The notes under the pieces are model-generated. The model searched no databases and was not told the origin of the DNA. It saw only the letters and a program-made list of their open reading frames with translations. A stretch of 64,000 nucleotides of DNA. Origin: a virus. The stretch lies in IMG/VR virus record IMGVR_UViG_3300029258_002996; one strand, given 5' to 3'. Of this stretch, positions 26,006 through 40,067 are shown piece by piece. How positions within the stretch are numbered: the first letter of the stretch is position 1; each line of letters begins with the position of its first letter. The position numbers and the translations under genes are program-made.

Positions 26006-26830
26006 TCAGTCCGTTTCGATTACAACGCGGCTTCGCTTGCGCTTCGCCGGAATTTCATCCAAGGAACCTTCGGATTCGATCCTCACGGGGATCTCCTCGG
26101 TTTCTCCTACATCTTTCTTTCGTTTCGCCTCCTCGCGAAGCTCTCTTCTAGCTTGTCCGATGGTTCGGGCTCTTCTCGGCATCAGATCAATCTGCTCGGC
26201 ATCGAGATCTTCCTTCGACACCACGAGACTCTCCAGCATCTTCTGCATCATGGGATCCCCCCAAGAAAGAGATTCCTGAAGCTCGTCAGGCTCGTTATCA
26301 AATTGGATATCACCTTCAGCCATGAAGGCTTCTAACTCTTCAGGAGTCAACTCCGGTTCCGATTCTCGGTCGGTTACAAATTCGGAGCCTTCGACTTCGA
26401 GATCCTGACGGACTTGTTCTTGGGTATGGTACTCCCCTTGCTTTTTGAGGATTCCAGCCACTACGTCCTCGCGACCCATTCCCAGCATCAACGGGAGATA
26501 CTCACCTTCCTGCGGCAAGCGCAGTAGTCCCGTATGAGGGTCCTCGACCGGCATCAAGTTGACCCCGAGAACGGAAATAACCTCGTCTCGAACCGCATCC
26601 ATGATGGCCTTCATCTCGTCGTATCTGCGCTCCTCGTTCCTCTGAATCGCAGCGTCTTCGAACGCCCACTGCGTTTCATTCATGTTCCTCAACCGAGGAT
26701 CCCCTATCGGGATGTTTCGCTGCGTCAAGATCTGCGCCTTGATCTGCAAATGCGAAACTATTTTTCTCCAGAAGGGGAAAGTTCGGTCCCAGAGGGGTCG
26801 ATACCCTCGTCCGAACTCTCCCCGGAGGAT
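26006..26830 (-). CDS. Tail assembly chaperone -1 frameshift extension (gpT-like part of a ~429-aa gpGT-type fusion)
   Basis: Overlaps the upstream chaperone in the -1 frame and is entered at A AAA AAA, giving ...ALKK-ILRGEFG. Confidence 0.8.
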   Translation of the reverse strand: MLRGEFGRGYRPLWDRTFPFWRKIVSHLQIKAQILTQRNIPIGDPRLRNMNETQWAFEDAAIQRNEERRYDEMKAIMDAVRDEVISVLGVNLMPVEDPHTGLLRLPQEGEYLPLMLGMGREDVVAGILKKQGEYHTQEQVRQDLEVEGSEFVTDRESEPELTPEELEAFMAEGDIQFDNEPDELQESLSWGDPMMQKMLESLVVSKEDLDAEQIDLMPRRARTIGQARRELREEAKRKKDVGETEEIPVRIESEGSLDEIPAKRKRSRVVIETD

Positions 26831-27294
26831 TTTTTTAACGCATCCTGAGCGTTCGACCTGCGGTCCTCCATCCTCTGCCACTCATCCCACAAGTCCGAAA
26901 TGACTTCTGGAAAACGGTCCGCGAGGAACTTCATCAGGTGTTCCGCCGTGAAGTACTTCGCAGAGTACGGCCCCTTTCCCTCCACGATCTCAAGCGCCCT
27001 CCGGCTCTCCTCGGTTGCGTCCCATTCCTCTCGAAAGAATTCGAAAACGGGAGTGCCGTTGATCTGTCGAATTCCGATTGCCAACGTAGGGAGCCGCCAC
27101 GAGCTAACGGCGCTCAGCTTCGAGCCGAGATTGATGTAGCCGTTTCTCCAGTTCGACTCCTCTTCGTTGAGCAGCCGCATCTTGAACTCGAAGCCTTTCA
27201 CGTTGCAGGTGTGCTCGATGGTCTCGCCGTCCAGTTCCTTGGCAAGATCCATCAGGACTTGTTTCGGATTTACGTTTTTCTGTTCGGTAGACAT
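26758..27294 (-). CDS. Tail assembly chaperone (gpG-like)
   Basis: Lies between tube and tape-measure genes and carries the slippery site near its 3' end. Confidence 0.85.
   Translation of the reverse strand: MSTEQKNVNPKQVLMDLAKELDGETIEHTCNVKGFEFKMRLLNEEESNWRNGYINLGSKLSAVSSWRLPTLAIGIRQINGTPVFEFFREEWDATEESRRALEIVEGKGPYSAKYFTAEHLMKFLADRFPEVISDLWDEWQRMEDRRSNAQDALKKSSGESSDEGIDPSGTELSPSGEK
26774..26836 (-). promoter_or_regulatory. Programmed -1 ribosomal frameshift signal
   Basis: Slippery A AAA AAA (26836-26830), 6-nt spacer, then a 13-bp stem GGGGAGAGTTCGG/CCGAACTTTCCCC with an inner GAGGG/CCCTC stem. Confidence 0.88.
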
Positions 27295-27339
27295 GGGGCT
27301 TTCGCTCCTCTCTCCCGCAATGCGGGGTAAAACGGGTTT

Positions 27340-36835: not shown

Positions 36836-37291
36836 CTATACGTGATCACCGACAGTGCGGGACACGAAGACTACTCTGCCCGAAACGGGCGAAGCTTTTT
36901 GGTTTGTCAGCTCCACTACAATGGGAAATCCCTTGAGCGCGCTGTCCTGAACCGATCTCCCAAAAGGGATGTTCTTGTTGCCTGGAAGCAGCGTAGCGTC
37001 TTCCCAAATCACATCGCAGAGTTCCGCGCCCCCTGCGATGCTGCCGCTTCCTTGAGATTTTCCTCGAACATGAGTAGAACCTTCCTTGAAAGGTTCCCCA
37101 GTCCAGCCACCGCCGTACAAAACCTCCCAATCGAGATCAAGCGCAGCGGTAACCAAACCCCCGCTCAAAACCCAAATCGTCATGTTGCGAATGGGCTCGC
37201 TCACCGGGGCGTCCCAAAGACGAATCGTATCCTGAGCGCCTCCGGATGCCGTCAGCTCGAATTCCCGTACTGTTACCCTGAAAGCTCCCAT
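36836..37291 (-). CDS. Putative virion protein, paralogue B
   Basis: Shares LDWEV.YGGGWTGEPFK.GSTH and terminal RTVGDHV with the upstream gene. Confidence 0.8.
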   Translation of the reverse strand: MGAFRVTVREFELTASGGAQDTIRLWDAPVSEPIRNMTIWVLSGGLVTAALDLDWEVLYGGGWTGEPFKEGSTHVRGKSQGSGSIAGGAELCDVIWEDATLLPGNKNIPFGRSVQDSALKGFPIVVELTNQKASPVSGRVVFVSRTVGDHV

Positions 37292-37300
37292 TCCTCGCTC

Positions 37301-37744
37301 CTATACGTGATCGCCCACGGTACGGCACACAAAAACCGCATTCAACGTCAGCGGTACGGCCTTGTTATTCTTCAGGTACAAGACGACCGGAAAGCCCTGC
37401 AAGGCACTGTCTGAGACCGATCTTCCCGCTGGTATGTTCTGGTTCGGAGGAAGAAGTGTTCCGTCTTCCCAAACCATGTCGCACAGCTCTGTACCGCCTG
37501 CGATAGCACCGCTTGCCTGAGATTTGCCCTTCAAGTGAGTAGAGCCCGATTTGAAAGGCTCCCCGGTCCAGCCGCCACCGTAGAAAACCTCCCAATCGAG
37601 GTTCCCCGCAGCAGTCGGGACTCCTCCATTGAGAAGCCAAATAGTCATATCTTTAAAAGGCTCACTCAAAGGAGCTGCCCAGATACGAGTAGCAGCACCT
37701 GCTGCAAGAGTTACGGTACGGACAGTTTCTTGGAAAGCTCCCAT
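37301..37744 (-). CDS. Putative virion protein, paralogue A
   Basis: Paralogue of 36836..37291. GAGGTG Shine-Dalgarno. Confidence 0.8.
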   Translation of the reverse strand: MGAFQETVRTVTLAAGAATRIWAAPLSEPFKDMTIWLLNGGVPTAAGNLDWEVFYGGGWTGEPFKSGSTHLKGKSQASGAIAGGTELCDMVWEDGTLLPPNQNIPAGRSVSDSALQGFPVVLYLKNNKAVPLTLNAVFVCRTVGDHV

Positions 37745-37783
37745 CGATCACCTCGTATAAGACGCAATGGTCCGTTTGGTATG

Positions 37784-37815
37784 AGAATACCATAAAACAA
37801 ATTCGGAAAGATAAA
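37784..37815 (-). promoter_or_regulatory. Putative late promoter (motif copy)
   Basis: TTTATCTTTCCG-N14-TATTCT, with TGG before the -10. Confidence 0.55.
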
Positions 37816-37826
37816 GAGACTCCGAT

Positions 37827-38657
37827 TTACTCGGGTGCGCCGTCGATTTTTGACTCCAGCTCTTTCTGCGCGAACTTCTTGACCGTCTTCCAGTAGCCTT
37901 TCCCCATCAGATACTCAAGATCGGCCCTCGTCAGCTCCATCGCCCGAAGCTCATCGAGCATCTGATTGGCGGACATCCTTTTGTCCTTCTCCACATCGTC
38001 GCCGACTTGCGCGCACAATCCGATCACCCGAGCAGTGACAATGTCGTCCGGCGATTGAGGAGCAGCAGCCTGCTCTTCCGTCAGTTCCTCGATAGTCCTG
38101 CGAGGCCCGGCGTCCTTGTTGGTGTACGCCTGCTTGTTCTGGATCGCGGCCTGTCCTTGGTGCGCCTCATCCATCTCGGTTTGCGCATCCGTACCTCGGC
38201 TCTTCGCCTTCTTTTCGTAGTAAGCGAGATACTCCTCCTCCTCCAGCAAGATCAACGCCGGAGGACGGCGATTGATCATCTTCCGAAAATCGGGAGAATC
38301 CTTGATCGCGCTGAAAGGCACCAACTGGGTGAGGTTGATTGGATCCGGGTTTCGTGGAATCAACACGGATTCGGTTCGACCCATTCCCATCTCGAACATC
38401 AGGGAAACCTGCGTATTCGACTTGTTCTGGACATACACATCATGCTCTTCCCTAAAGTACTTAGTGAAGTTCGTGATCGCCCCTGCTGCACTTGGCATAT
38501 TAGCCTCCTTTGGCTTTTCGATCAGTTGTATGGCGTAGGGGCGACGTCCCGCGACTCGCGCCCTACCCCGGTTCACCAGTTTCCGCGCCCTGGCGGGGTG
38601 GGTGGCCGACAAAATGGTTCCATCAGGTCCAAGGACTGGAACACGATTCGTCGACAC
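37827..38657 (-). CDS. Post-capsid protein with N-terminal PLMP/RRXRR (IscB-type) domain; internal start at 38498
   Basis: VPVLGPDGTILSATHPARARKLVNRGRARVAGRRPYAIQL matches the IscB N-terminal pattern. AAGGAGG-N5-ATG at Met54. Confidence 0.8.
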   Translation of the reverse strand: MSTNRVPVLGPDGTILSATHPARARKLVNRGRARVAGRRPYAIQLIEKPKEANMPSAAGAITNFTKYFREEHDVYVQNKSNTQVSLMFEMGMGRTESVLIPRNPDPINLTQLVPFSAIKDSPDFRKMINRRPPALILLEEEEYLAYYEKKAKSRGTDAQTEMDEAHQGQAAIQNKQAYTNKDAGPRRTIEELTEEQAAAPQSPDDIVTARVIGLCAQVGDDVEKDKRMSANQMLDELRAMELTRADLEYLMGKGYWKTVKKFAQKELESKIDGAPE

Positions 38658-38792
38658 ACCAACTATCCTCGTTGGGAATCAGAGCTTTCGCTCAATCTCC
38701 CGCCTACGCGGGGTTAAAGAGTCGGAGGGAAGGGGACGCTCAGCGTCCCCATACGAAGGCGTTACCGTCTTCGCCCCTCTTCCTCAGTTTTC
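38658..38792 (-). ncRNA. Candidate structured RNA element between the capsid and PLMP genes
   Basis: Four hairpins in 135 nt, two with GNRA loops (GUAA, GAAA) on the coding strand. No U-tract follows them. Confidence 0.45.
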
Positions 38793-40067
38793 CTACTTCG
38801 AGCCCTTGGCGCACGCACGCGCGTTCGGGATCACGAATCCGATCATCTCGACAAAGGCCCAGCCTTTCACCGTCTCCTGCTGCGCGTACTTGTTGTACGG
38901 CTCGGAGAACAGCTCGATCCTGACGCCCATCTCGCCCATGTATTCGGCTCCGGTCGTCGCGTAGAAGGTCCCTGCCGGGATCACTTCCTCGACACCGGTA
39001 CCGGCTGCGGTGAGGATCTGCGCGTTCAAGATATTGCCGATGTAACCGGCCAGGATCAGCTCACGCTCGGTGACCGGATCCACCGCAGCCGACATCGTCT
39101 TCACGACATCGGACAGCTCGGCACGAGAGATCAGGAAGTTCTCGACCATCAGACGATGGCGCTCGACCTGATACCGGACATCCTCGAAAGCGTTCAGGCC
39201 AAGAGAACCGAACGTGGTCACGGTATTCTCGGTCTGGGCAGCCTCGTCGATGATGGCGATACCGGCCTTGTCCTCCTGAAGCTCGATCTCCTGCCGCGCG
39301 GTGTCCTGAGCACGATCCAAGACATCGAAGTTCATCTGATAGATGTCCATGATGTCGATGGACGGGAAGCTCGTCACCTTCCACTCGGGCGGGGTGACCC
39401 ACTTCGTCTTGATCCTCGACTCGGGGGTCTGCCCGTCTTGGCCAACCACCCAGGCGACCGAACGGATATCCAGCGGCACGCGGAACAGCTCGGCCTGGGC
39501 CAGCTTGCGTACACGATAGATCTTCCGGGAGAAGCCTTCGTAGTCGAGAATCGCCTTGATCGGGAGCGCCAGCTCCTGACCGACGATGTGGAAGCCCTGA
39601 CCCGAGGGATCCTGGAGAGCCGCCGCCAAGATGTCCCGACGCGCTTCCTTCGAGATGCCCGACTCCGTGTCCGGACGGTAGAAGGAGAGCGCGTTGGCGT
39701 TCTGCTTCACCGTCTCGTTCAGGAGCTGATGCACCTGCGTCATCGCGTCGCGACGGTCGATGGCGTTGACCTCGCCTCTCGAATCAAACATGCGGCGATC
39801 CGAACGTCCGCGAGTCGCGTGGCGGCTCGACGGATGATCGTAACGCTGCGGGTTGAAGGTACCGTCGCCCTGGAACAGGGTTTCGTCCTTCTTCGATCCG
39901 AACCGACTCCTCGGACGTGCAGCGAGTCTGCGCCGCTCGTCCTTCGGAGCTTCTTTCCGAGCCTGTCGGGGAGCGGGACGCTTACCCCGGGTAGGCTCAC
40001 CTCGCCGAGCTGCCTTGGTGGGCACGGGACGGCGCTTCTTGGAAATCCTTTTGTACGGATTATTCAT
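38793..40067 (-). CDS. Major capsid protein (HK97 fold) with Arg-rich N-terminal extension
   Basis: GQELALPIKAILDYEGFSRK...QEIELQED...GWAFVEMIGFVIPN, downstream of protease, scaffold and decoration genes. Confidence 0.9.
   Translation of the reverse strand: MNNPYKRISKKRRPVPTKAARRGEPTRGKRPAPRQARKEAPKDERRRLAARPRSRFGSKKDETLFQGDGTFNPQRYDHPSSRHATRGRSDRRMFDSRGEVNAIDRRDAMTQVHQLLNETVKQNANALSFYRPDTESGISKEARRDILAAALQDPSGQGFHIVGQELALPIKAILDYEGFSRKIYRVRKLAQAELFRVPLDIRSVAWVVGQDGQTPESRIKTKWVTPPEWKVTSFPSIDIMDIYQMNFDVLDRAQDTARQEIELQEDKAGIAIIDEAAQTENTVTTFGSLGLNAFEDVRYQVERHRLMVENFLISRAELSDVVKTMSAAVDPVTERELILAGYIGNILNAQILTAAGTGVEEVIPAGTFYATTGAEYMGEMGVRIELFSEPYNKYAQQETVKGWAFVEMIGFVIPNARACAKGSK

What the first reader, a model, noticed from the sequence alone, without database searches (positions are those of the whole stretch)
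37827..38792. IscB-type PLMP domain plus structured RNA placed directly behind the major capsid gene
Seen: the first ~50 aa (VPVLGPDGTILSATHPARARKLVNRGRARVAGRRPYAIQL) follow the PLMP/RRXRR pattern (V.VL..DG.PLMP.HPARAR.L...G.A.V....PF.IQL), but no RuvC or HNH motifs follow. The segment has its own GAGGA-GTG start and is fused in frame to a 223-aa phage protein that keeps its own AAGGAGG-N5-ATG at 38498, so long and short isoforms are possible. Known: PLMP is the N-terminal domain of IscB/IsrB OMEGA nucleases and contacts the omegaRNA encoded just upstream. Inference: either a domesticated RNA-binding module regulating expression downstream of the capsid gene, or an in-frame relic of an IS200/605 IscB element.
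Basis: partly seen in the sequence, partly recalled or inferred. Interest (0 to 1): 0.8.

Follow-up and report, generated by a model that had tools for sequence, protein, structure and literature searches.

The report
Nuclease-free IscB PLMP domain in phage
A large uncultured phage carries, just after its capsid gene, a conserved protein whose rarer long form starts with the small RNA-hairpin-binding "PLMP" domain of the Cas9 ancestors IscB/IsrB but has no nuclease; conserved RNA hairpins precede it, so it may be a translational control module, though RNA binding is untested.

Summary
ORF 37827-38657 (-) encodes 276 aa. Residues 4-53 are a genuine PLMP domain: Pfam RRXRR scores 33.6 bits against a cut-off of 25, and the model superposes on IscB/IsrB at Z 7-8, rmsd 2.3-2.5 Å, 32-35% identity. 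No RuvC or HNH domain follows.

The "relic" reading is refuted:
- The PLMP-body fusion is kept in frame in 37 of 38 related phage loci.
- dN/dS for the PLMP domain is 0.08-0.35.
- In one subclade PLMP and body are adjacent separate genes.

The two-start idea is strongly supported. A 5-nt or longer Shine-Dalgarno plus ATG sits at the domain junction in 26 of 28 distinct relatives, against 12% background. Gene callers usually pick this internal start.

The 135-nt spacer holds conserved hairpins with covarying stems (UUUAAC-stem-AGG, then a GNRA-type hairpin). A second, positionally conserved copy lies 11.4 kb away, before a putative tail-chaperone gene.

It is not shown that PLMP binds these hairpins. 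There is no Rfam/HEARO match, a reciprocal omega-RNA model fails, and the split forms lack the leader. The function of the body is unknown.

This scan has already flagged the same family on at least nine other genomes.

The parts
38793..40067 (-). Major head (capsid) protein gene, directly upstream; context
   Evidence: phrog_2522 major head protein, E 6.3e-57. It is 55-83% identical in the related loci and lies directly upstream of the PLMP gene in most of them.
38732..38773 (-). Two GC-rich hairpins right after the capsid stop codon (GGGGACGC-TGA-GCGTCCCC at 38750-38732). Terminator- or stabiliser-like, with no U-run in this window.
   Evidence: MFE fold. A long GC-rich hairpin of different sequence sits at the same place in every relative, and is followed by UUUU in the group-B relatives. 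The simple terminator scan does not call it.
38696..38720 (-). Leader hairpin 2: UUUAAC-CCCGC-GUAG-GCGGG-AGA
   Evidence: Flanks are conserved and stems covary. At least 15 different stem sequences occur between UUWAC and AG(G) across relatives.
38682..38693 (-). Leader hairpin 3: GAGC-GAAA-GCUC (GNRA tetraloop)
   Evidence: All 4 pairs show changes on both sides among 13 sequences; 96% of cells are paired.
38659..38675 (-). Small hairpin CCAAC-GAGGAUA-GUUGG with the upstream Shine-Dalgarno GAGGA (38670-38666) in its loop
   Evidence: Sequence and MFE fold. L018 has a similar SD-in-loop hairpin. It is not clearly conserved elsewhere.
37827..38657 (-). Long isoform ORF (276 aa): GTG start, PLMP domain plus body
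   Evidence: Full-length homologues align from residue 3-8 to about 270.
38499..38648 (-). PLMP domain (residues 4-53): four strands and one helix, pI 11.8, net charge +8
   Evidence: The eponymous P-L-M-P motif is replaced by I-L-S-A here and by FLSY in the family consensus.
38496..38510 (-). Internal ribosome-binding site AAGGAGG-N5-ATG in the linker between the domains
   Evidence: An SD of 5 nt or more precedes the junction ATG in 26 of 28 distinct relatives, against 12% of 1394 other in-frame internal ATGs (per-locus list).
37827..38498 (-). Short isoform / body (223 aa): beta domain (residues ~60-140) plus acidic helical domain (~141-276), pI 5.1. Function unknown.
   Evidence: phrog_17686. 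No solved fold reaches Z 5 for the beta domain. BFVD hits are uncharacterised proteins of PaBG, Motura and BcepSaruman.
27282..27334 (-). Second copy of the hairpin motif (UUUUAC-CCCGC-AUU-GCGGG-AGAGAGGAGCGAAAGCC), ending 3 nt before ATG 27294
   Evidence: Exact-pattern search gives 2 matches against 0 expected. CM R1 finds it (this copy was in the training set). Untrained copies at the same 11.4-11.9 kb distance occur in complete relatives G001, G004 and G005.
26758..27294 (-). 178-aa gene behind the second hairpin copy. It lies after the tail-tube paralogues and before the tape-measure genes, and is overlapped by a 291-aa ORF in another frame, so it is probably a tail assembly chaperone.
   Evidence: Position and ORF overlap. 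No family hit. The function is inferred from gene order only.

Best explanation
The feature is a conserved late gene of a widespread clade of large (150-210 kb) uncultured phages related to Virus Rctr197k.

It is read from two in-frame starts:
- A strong internal site (AAGGAGG-N5-ATG, 38498) gives an abundant 223-aa acidic protein of unknown function.
- A weak, hairpin-embedded upstream site (GAGGA-N8-GTG, 38657) gives a minor 276-aa form that adds a basic, nuclease-free PLMP domain of the IscB/IsrB type.

Shown here: the domain identity, the lack of a nuclease, purifying selection on the domain, the conserved internal ribosome-binding site, and a conserved, covarying hairpin leader with a second conserved copy before a tail gene.

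Inferred: as in IscB/IsrB, where PLMP clamps the hairpins next to its own Shine-Dalgarno, the PLMP domain of the long form binds the UUUAAC-hairpin-AGG / GNRA-hairpin element in its own leader and at the second site. By doing so it limits its own synthesis and perhaps that of the tail-chaperone gene.
For: - Domain: Pfam above the gathering score; structural superposition on IscB/IsrB at Z 7-8; profile hit to TbaIscB at E 1e-14.
- Conservation: 37 of 38 IMG/VR loci keep PLMP and body in one frame. 50 of the 55 aligned long forms in the 80-member alignment A1 match PF14239.
- Selection: dN/dS for PLMP is 0.08-0.35, against 0.1-0.5 for the body.
- 'Short' database forms: all five with DNA available carry the in-frame PLMP upstream.
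- Split genes: L055 and L085 encode PLMP and body as adjacent separate genes, which shows a functional link.
- Internal start: 26 of 28 relatives against 12% background. The upstream start is often GTG or TTG with a 4-nt SD.
- Leader: covariation. R1 finds untrained leaders in L053, L056 and L051.
- Second site: conserved at the same distance in relatives.
- Loss together: the PLMP-less L033 lacks hairpins 2 and 3.
- Independent co-occurrence: a solo PLMP ORF in a tra operon (L086) has the same motif nearby.
- Charge: the domain carries +8.
- Literature: PLMP contacts the terminal hairpins and the SD just upstream of its own ORF (PMC9581776; PMC9640706).
Against: - RNA binding by this domain is untested.
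- The split forms L055 and L085 have no such leader. In L085 the PLMP ORF start overlaps the stop of the preceding deaminase gene, and R1 finds nothing there. The constant partner of PLMP is therefore the body, not the leader.
- No Rfam family, HEARO included, matches the leaders.
- A model of the first two hairpins of cyanobacterial IsrB-type upstream RNAs does not find the phage leaders.
- Both hairpin sites follow very highly expressed genes (capsid, tail tube). They could be plain attenuators or processing sites independent of PLMP.
- The P-L-M-P motif itself is not kept.
- Only one PLMP-less locus could be inspected at the DNA level.
Confidence: 0.4

Rival explanations
1. PLMP is an adaptor for the body protein, not a regulator of its own mRNA. 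In IscB/IsrB the domain packs against RuvC and TI. Here it would tether a fraction of the body protein to nucleic acid (packaged DNA, replicating DNA or some RNA) or to another protein. The leader hairpins would be independent attenuator, processing or stability elements that step expression down after the capsid and tail-tube genes.
For: - PLMP stays with the body whether fused or split, while the leader does not.
- Both hairpin sites follow high-copy structural genes.
- A terminator-like hairpin precedes them in all relatives.
- The basic domain is joined to an acidic body.
- Distant body homologues in PaBG, JA11 and RSL1 sit beside a Holliday-junction resolvase or recombination endonuclease, and in PaBG and JA11 also beside a primase. 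In G003, a 365-aa protein that shares only the beta domain lies beside DNA polymerase.
- PMC9581776 reports extensive PLMP-protein contacts.
Against: - Only two copies of the hairpin motif occur in 64 kb of late genes, and 1-2 per complete related genome. That is few for a generic attenuator.
- The PLMP-less L033 lacks the motif.
- A solo PLMP gene in an unrelated tra operon co-occurs with the motif.
Confidence: 0.35
2. The N-terminal extension is a decaying, in-frame relic of an IscB/IsrB (IS200/605) insertion with no function.
For: Only the first 48 of 174 RRXRR profile positions are present, and no nuclease follows.
Against: - It is conserved in frame in relatives down to 28% identity.
- dN/dS is 0.08-0.35.
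- It keeps the same syntenic position after the capsid gene in complete genomes, which hold no other RRXRR match.
- Duplicated (L035, L036, L039) and split (L055, L085) variants exist.
Confidence: 0.02
3. The PLMP segment and the body are really two genes, or the upstream part is not translated, and the single long ORF is a reading artefact.
For: - Gene callers usually start at the internal ATG. All five 'short' database entries inspected did so, and the ESM Atlas holds this protein from residue 54.
- True split versions exist.
Against: - No stop codon separates the parts in 37 of 38 loci, although synonymous sites are saturated.
- Amino-acid-level conservation of the upstream part shows that it is translated, and without a stop codon ribosomes must read through into the body.
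Confidence: 0.05

Closest known systems
PLMP domain of the OMEGA nucleases IscB / IsrB / IshB with the omega-RNA (Pfam PF14239 N-terminal part; PDB 9K30, 9K2Z, 8DMB, 7UTN, 7XHT; PMC9581776, PMC9640706, PMC10734217)
   Same: Same small fold and clear sequence homology. The domain sits at the N-terminus, directly behind structured RNA hairpins and a Shine-Dalgarno. In IsrB these hairpins and the SD are what PLMP touches.
   Different: There is no RuvC, bridge helix, HNH or TI domain, and no transposon context. The partner is a phage protein of unknown function. The P-L-M-P motif is replaced (ILSA here, FLSY in the consensus). The leader is 135 nt (about 200 nt in group B) and matches no omega-RNA model.
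phrog_17686 (e.g. Pseudomonas phage PaBG gp154, Dickeya phage JA11 gp207, Ralstonia phage RSL1 ORF299), uncharacterised
   Same: The body (residues 69-266) matches the profile over 21-217 of 225 positions, E 9.8e-08. Foldseek BFVD E-values are about 1e-8.
   Different: Those proteins have no PLMP domain. They lie far from the capsid gene, beside a resolvase or recombination endonuclease, and in PaBG and JA11 also a primase and a Cas4-like gene.
In-frame nested phage genes with an internal start (lambda C/Nu3, T7 gene 4A/4B, phiX174 A/A*); from my own knowledge
   Same: One reading frame would give a long and a short protein from two ribosome-binding sites. The short one lacks an N-terminal functional domain.
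   Different: The two products have not been observed here. The N-terminal domain is a PLMP domain, which is not known from any of those cases.
Translational operators bound by phage proteins (MS2 coat protein hairpin, T4 RegA, T4 gp32 autoregulation); from my own knowledge
   Same: This is the proposed logic: a phage protein binds a hairpin or SD region of its own and another late mRNA.
   Different: There is no homology, and binding here is only inferred.
[quoted passage not shown]
   Same: Hirano et al. report IF3-N as the closest fold and a remote homologue of PLMP (PMC9581776). IF3-N chains appear just below the IscB hits in my Foldseek list.
   Different: Those matches are not significant here (E 0.6-0.7), and no link to initiation-factor function was tested.

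Membership tests
IscB / IsrB / IshB OMEGA nucleases | N-terminal PLMP domain | tested here: met
   PF14239 at 33.6 bits against a cut-off of 25, residues 6-53. Z 7-8 against solved IscB/IsrB. Profile hit to TbaIscB at E 1e-14.
IscB / IsrB / IshB OMEGA nucleases | RuvC nuclease domain with bridge helix (IscB, IsrB) | tested here: not met
   The RRXRR match stops at profile position 48 of 174. NCBIfam guided_IscB scores 27.8 bits against a cut-off of 175, over residues 8-52 only. The body models as a beta domain plus helices, with no RNase H-like hit.
IscB / IsrB / IshB OMEGA nucleases | HNH nuclease domain (IscB, IshB) | tested here: not met
   No HNH family in the Pfam scan at E up to 1. None in the 80 family members scanned.
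IscB / IsrB / IshB OMEGA nucleases | Cognate omega-RNA (HEARO-type scaffold with guide) encoded upstream | tested here: inconclusive
   No Rfam match at E up to 10 in the window region, or up to 1 in five related loci. R1 hits one cyanobacterial IsrB-type upstream region (L093, E 2e-4), but the reciprocal model R2 finds no phage leader. The cyanobacterial loci themselves also lack an Rfam hit, so Rfam coverage is incomplete.
IscB / IsrB / IshB OMEGA nucleases | Mobile IS200/605-type context (variable insertion sites, TnpA or transposon ends) | tested here: not met
   The gene lies directly after the capsid gene in most of the 38 loci, and in the rest the two are separated by a 0.8-2 kb insert or the capsid gene is not within the flank. 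It is the single RRXRR match in four complete related genomes. Transposon ends were not searched for explicitly.
Pfam PF14239 (RRXRR) | Whole-protein score above the gathering cut-off | tested here: met
   33.6 bits against 25. Only the N-terminal 48 of 174 profile positions are covered.
phrog_17686 | Profile match over most of the family length | tested here: met
   E 9.8e-08, residues 69-266 against positions 21-217 of 225. PHROGs has no curated cut-off, so the relation is distant.
Dual-start (nested in-frame) phage genes | Conserved internal ribosome-binding site and start codon inside the long ORF | tested here: met
   26 of 28 relatives against 12% background. Gene callers choose it.
Dual-start (nested in-frame) phage genes | Two protein products actually made | not testable with these tools
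   No RNA run holds this sequence, and no proteomic data are available.

The most novel reading that the evidence does not exclude
A PLMP domain with its hairpin RNA works in phages, and possibly in conjugative elements, as a free-standing protein-RNA switch. A minor PLMP-bearing isoform would bind a UUUAAC-hairpin-AGG operator at its own start and at a tail-assembly gene, setting late-gene stoichiometry. If so, hairpin and Shine-Dalgarno binding would be the primary, possibly ancestral, job of PLMP, whose role in IscB is still called unclear. The domain would then either have been captured from, or donated to, the OMEGA nucleases.
Probability: 0.3. Interest if true: 0.8.

Novelty: new variant of a known kind. 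Interest (0 to 1): 0.6.

Why it matters
PLMP is described in the literature I could search only as the N-terminal domain of the IscB, IsrB and IshB nucleases, and its function there is called unclear (PMC10734217). This family provides a natural, nuclease-free setting in which PLMP is under selection. It occurs fused, duplicated or split next to one partner protein, and is usually preceded by a small covarying hairpin element.

That makes the elementary activity of PLMP directly testable with short RNAs and a 55-residue domain. Candidate activities are hairpin or SD binding, or docking to a partner protein.

The finding also exposes a systematic annotation error. Gene callers start this family at the internal ATG, so public protein sets mostly hold the truncated form. 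If the regulatory reading holds, it adds a new kind of translational operator to phage late-gene control.

Tried and rejected
- Rfam scans of the window region and of five related loci gave no family, HEARO included. The eight cyanobacterial IsrB-type loci also gave none at gathering score.
- The sigma-70 promoter and intrinsic-terminator scan of 37500-39200 found nothing useful in the spacer.
- Complex prediction of the PLMP domain against the body gave no verdict. It is not used as evidence either way.
- The look-up of sequencing runs listed no RNA holder, only DNA metagenomes from sediment and seawater.
- No whole genome is held for the window.
- The word-index search for short PLMP-only relatives with the single protein found nothing. 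The alignment query worked.
- Two attempts to fetch loci failed before succeeding: alignments too diverse, and query P0175 had no relative.
- I tested homology of the phage leader with the omega-RNA. R1 hits one IsrB-type upstream region (L093). The reciprocal model R2 does not find any phage leader, so I do not claim homology.
- Fold searches for the body found no convincing fold. The helical C-terminal part gave only generic helical matches (Z 6 or less). For the beta domain alone the best hits were Z 4.8 and 4.3 to GINS subunits, and Foldseek E was 0.9 or worse. This is a lead only.
- NCBIfam and PADLOC gave nothing for the body or for the two downstream paralogues.
- PaBG gp078 and gp079, which follow its capsid gene, are not homologues of this gene or of its 147-aa neighbour.
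- The PaBG paper does not mention gp154.
- A search for bacterial-type RuvC (PF02075) in five related genomes found nothing. Phage-type resolvase families were not searched.

Full report
**What is there.** On the minus strand, ORF 37827-38657 encodes 276 aa. It begins at GTG 38657, eight bases after GAGGA (38670-38666). It contains an in-frame ATG at 38498, preceded by AAGGAGG (38510-38504) and a 5-nt spacer. The gene upstream (38793-40067) is the major head protein (phrog_2522, E 6e-57). No whole genome is held for the window. The sequence occurs in sediment and seawater metagenomes. Its only INPHARED relative is the 197-kb Virus Rctr197k.

**The domain call.**
- Pfam RRXRR (PF14239) matches residues 6-53 to profile positions 1-48 of 174, at 33.6 bits against a gathering score of 25.
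- An AlphaFold2 model built on 80 homologues has mean pLDDT 91.5. It shows four strands and a helix in residues 4-53, a low-confidence linker, a beta domain (about 60-140) and a helical domain.
- The nine best Foldseek hits in the PDB are all IscB/IsrB.
- VIA-align places residues 4-53 on residues 1-50 of IscB/IsrB at Z 7.0-8.0, rmsd 2.3-2.5 Å and 32-35% identity for four of the five top chains.
- A profile of 21 N-domains of the family hits TbaIscB at E 1e-14.
- Nothing nuclease-like follows. There is no other Pfam family, and NCBIfam guided_IscB reaches 27.8 bits against a cut-off of 175, over residues 8-52 only.
- The eponymous P-L-M-P motif is not kept. It reads ILSA here and FLSY in the family consensus.
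- The domain is strongly basic (pI 11.8, +8) and the body acidic (pI 5.1, -7).

**Relic or functional.** The evidence rules out a relic.
- An exhaustive HMMER search found 204 cluster representatives. Many align from residue 3-8 through about 270.
- 38 IMG/VR loci were fetched. In 37 the PLMP part and the body lie in one frame, at 28-62% identity.
- In most loci the gene directly follows the capsid gene.
- 50 of the 55 aligned long forms in the 80-member alignment A1 match PF14239.
- Nei-Gojobori dN/dS for the 45 PLMP codons is 0.08-0.35 wherever dS can be estimated. This is at or below the body's 0.1-0.5. dS is near saturation, so the values are rough, but the direction is clear.
- In four complete related genomes this gene is the only RRXRR match.
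- Variants argue for function. L035, L036 and L039 carry two tandem PLMP-like domains.
- In L055 and L085 a separate 64- or 71-aa PLMP ORF (PF14239 above cut-off for L055) directly precedes a separate body gene. The L085 body is 39% identical to this one, E 3e-51.
- Only L033 lacks the domain, and the same holds for its relative P0053 judging from gene spacing.

**Two starts.**
- Every relative has a Met 2-12 residues before the conserved NFT motif.
- In 26 of 28 distinct sequences that ATG is preceded by a 5-nt or longer Shine-Dalgarno. Only 12% of 1394 other in-frame internal ATGs in long open frames of the same loci have one (list). The sequences are related, so the binomial P value is not a true probability. 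The linker is otherwise poorly conserved, and its residues (PREDK, RRRK) look like translated SD sequences.
- The upstream start is often GTG or TTG with a 4-nt SD.
- Gene callers take the internal start. All five "short" database proteins I could inspect (P0016, P0018, P0025, P0028, P0031) have the PLMP domain in frame upstream.
- The ESM Atlas holds this very protein from residue 54 onwards.
- A long minor and a short major isoform are therefore well supported by sequence, though neither product has been observed.

**The spacer RNA.** The 135-nt spacer folds at z -3.3. Comparison with relatives shows a conserved layout:
1. A long GC-rich hairpin of variable sequence after the capsid stop codon.
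2. Hairpin 2, with conserved flanks UUWAC and AG(G) around a stem that takes at least 15 different sequences.
3. Hairpin 3, with a GNRA or UAAC-type loop.

On a 13-sequence alignment, 93% of cells pair. Five of nine pairs show changes on both sides, including all four pairs of hairpin 3. No shuffle out of 500 reaches the observed covariation score, and slid registers drop to 42-54% paired.

A second group of relatives has a leader of about 200 nt with several hairpins. There, 29 of 45 predicted pairs carry compensatory changes.

A covariance model of the hairpin pair (R1) finds two copies in the 64-kb window: the leader, and 27282-27334, which ends 3 nt before ATG 27294. It finds untrained second copies at the same 11.4-11.9 kb distance in complete relatives. 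It also finds untrained leaders in L053, L056 and L051. L033, which has no PLMP, keeps only the first hairpin.

**Is it an omega-RNA?** This is not shown.
- Rfam, which includes HEARO, gives nothing.
- I fetched eight cyanobacterial IsrB-sized genes. Their upstream RNA begins CACUAACC-hairpin-GGAUU-hairpin.
- R1 hits one of them (L093, E 2e-4). A model built from those RNAs (R2) finds no phage leader. I therefore claim analogy, not homology.

**What the literature says about PLMP.**
- In IsrB the domain contacts the tandem terminal hairpins and the Shine-Dalgarno that lies just upstream of the IsrB ORF. The authors suggest a role in regulating expression. They also note extensive contacts with RuvC and TI, and an IF3-N-like fold (PMC9581776).
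- In IscB the terminal hairpins are recognised by PLMP, mainly without sequence specificity (PMC9640706).
- A review calls the function still unclear and lists only the IscB, IsrB and IshB contexts (PMC10734217).

**The body.**
- It matches phrog_17686 (unknown function) and uncharacterised proteins of PaBG, Motura and BcepSaruman.
- In PaBG, JA11 and RSL1 these distant homologues lack PLMP (checked for PaBG). They lie far from the capsid gene, next to a Holliday-junction resolvase or recombination endonuclease, and in PaBG and JA11 also a primase and a Cas4-like gene.
- The beta domain also occurs alone at the N-terminus of other phage proteins. One sits beside DNA polymerase in G003. Another is an Ig-domain-rich 661-aa protein in JA11.
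- Folded alone (pLDDT 91.5), the beta domain has no solved counterpart at Z 5 or above. The top weak rows are GINS subunits.
- I cannot say whether the body is structural or DNA-associated.

**Most likely mechanism.** I commit, at about 0.4, to the following. The minor long isoform uses its PLMP domain to bind the hairpin/AGG element in its own leader and at the tail-gene site, limiting translation there.
- For: the IscB/IsrB precedent, the covarying leader, the conserved second site, the co-loss in L033, the basic charge, and an independent co-occurrence. That co-occurrence is a 65-aa solo PLMP ORF in a conjugative tra operon (L086), which has the same motif architecture between traV and trbC.
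- Against: the split forms have no such leader, so the invariant partner of PLMP is the body. Both hairpin sites also follow very highly expressed genes and could be ordinary attenuators.
- The main rival, at about 0.35, is that PLMP is an adaptor tethering the body to nucleic acid or to a partner protein, with the hairpins unrelated.
- The relic and artefact readings are essentially excluded.

**Novelty and standing.** The domain is known. Its conserved use without any nuclease, on a two-isoform phage protein behind a covarying hairpin element, is not described in the papers I could search. I class it as a new variant of a known kind. This scan has noted the same family on at least nine other genomes with similar readings. 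Those notes are not independent evidence. I tested their main points on this window myself.

Noticed in passing
window 27282-27334 (-), before ATG 27294: Second copy of the hairpin motif sits in front of a 178-aa gene. That gene follows two tail-tube-like paralogues and is overlapped by a 291-aa ORF in another frame, a layout like a tail assembly chaperone with a frameshift partner. The site is positionally conserved in relatives G001, G004 and G005.
   Followed up: partly
L035, L036, L039 (IMG/VR loci), ORF starts 3731 / 3767: These relatives carry two tandem PLMP-like domains in front of the body. The Pfam RRXRR match is weak (E 0.004 in L035).
   Followed up: partly
L055:2250-3262 and L085:2501-3519: Split arrangement: a 64- or 71-aa PLMP-only ORF is followed by a separate body gene, both directly after a dCMP deaminase gene and away from any capsid gene in the contig. 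No hairpin motif was found by R1.
   Followed up: yes
L086:1991-2052 and 2501-2698: A 65-aa solo PLMP ORF lies inside a conjugative transfer operon (TraV, TrbC, TraC). Between traV and trbC lies CUAACC-CUUUGC..GCAAAG-GAGG-U-GCGG-GAAA-CCGC followed by a U-run. This is the same motif architecture as the phage leader (R1 E 1.6e-3).
   Followed up: partly
window 37301-37744 (-) and 36836-37291 (-): Two paralogous 147- and 151-aa genes follow the PLMP gene. Genes of about 130-155 aa also follow it in L051, L053, L055, L056 and L057. They have no hit in Pfam, PHROGs, NCBIfam or PADLOC.
   Followed up: partly
PaBG NC_022096 112347-113018; JA11 NC_048077 178339-181123; RSL1 NC_010811 206239-207684: Distant homologues of the body (phrog_17686) in jumbo phages are syntenic with a Holliday-junction resolvase or recombination endonuclease, and in PaBG and JA11 also with a primase. 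The isolated beta domain gives weak GINS-subunit fold hits (Z 4.3-4.8). Together these are a faint hint of a replication or recombination role.
   Followed up: partly
L088-L098 (cyanobacterial genomes), about 200-300 nt upstream of the 363-385-aa PLMP genes: IsrB-sized genes have a conserved upstream RNA that starts CACUAACC-hairpin-GGAUU-hairpin. None of the eight loci reaches an Rfam gathering score, so this omega-RNA type seems to be absent from Rfam 15.
   Followed up: partly
L021, L023, L026-L028, L030, L031, leaders of about 200 nt: In this group the long hairpin after the capsid gene has a conserved loop (G/A)(U/A)UCCACC and is followed by UUUUACC. Conserved single-stranded blocks (ACAAACUGUCUCC, GGUGGGUGAAAGACCCGU) suggest a larger structured RNA than in the window.
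   Followed up: partly
public protein sets (P0016, P0018, P0025, P0028, P0031; ESM Atlas record of this protein): Gene callers systematically start this family at the internal ATG. Many database entries therefore lack the PLMP domain that the DNA encodes in frame.
   Followed up: yes
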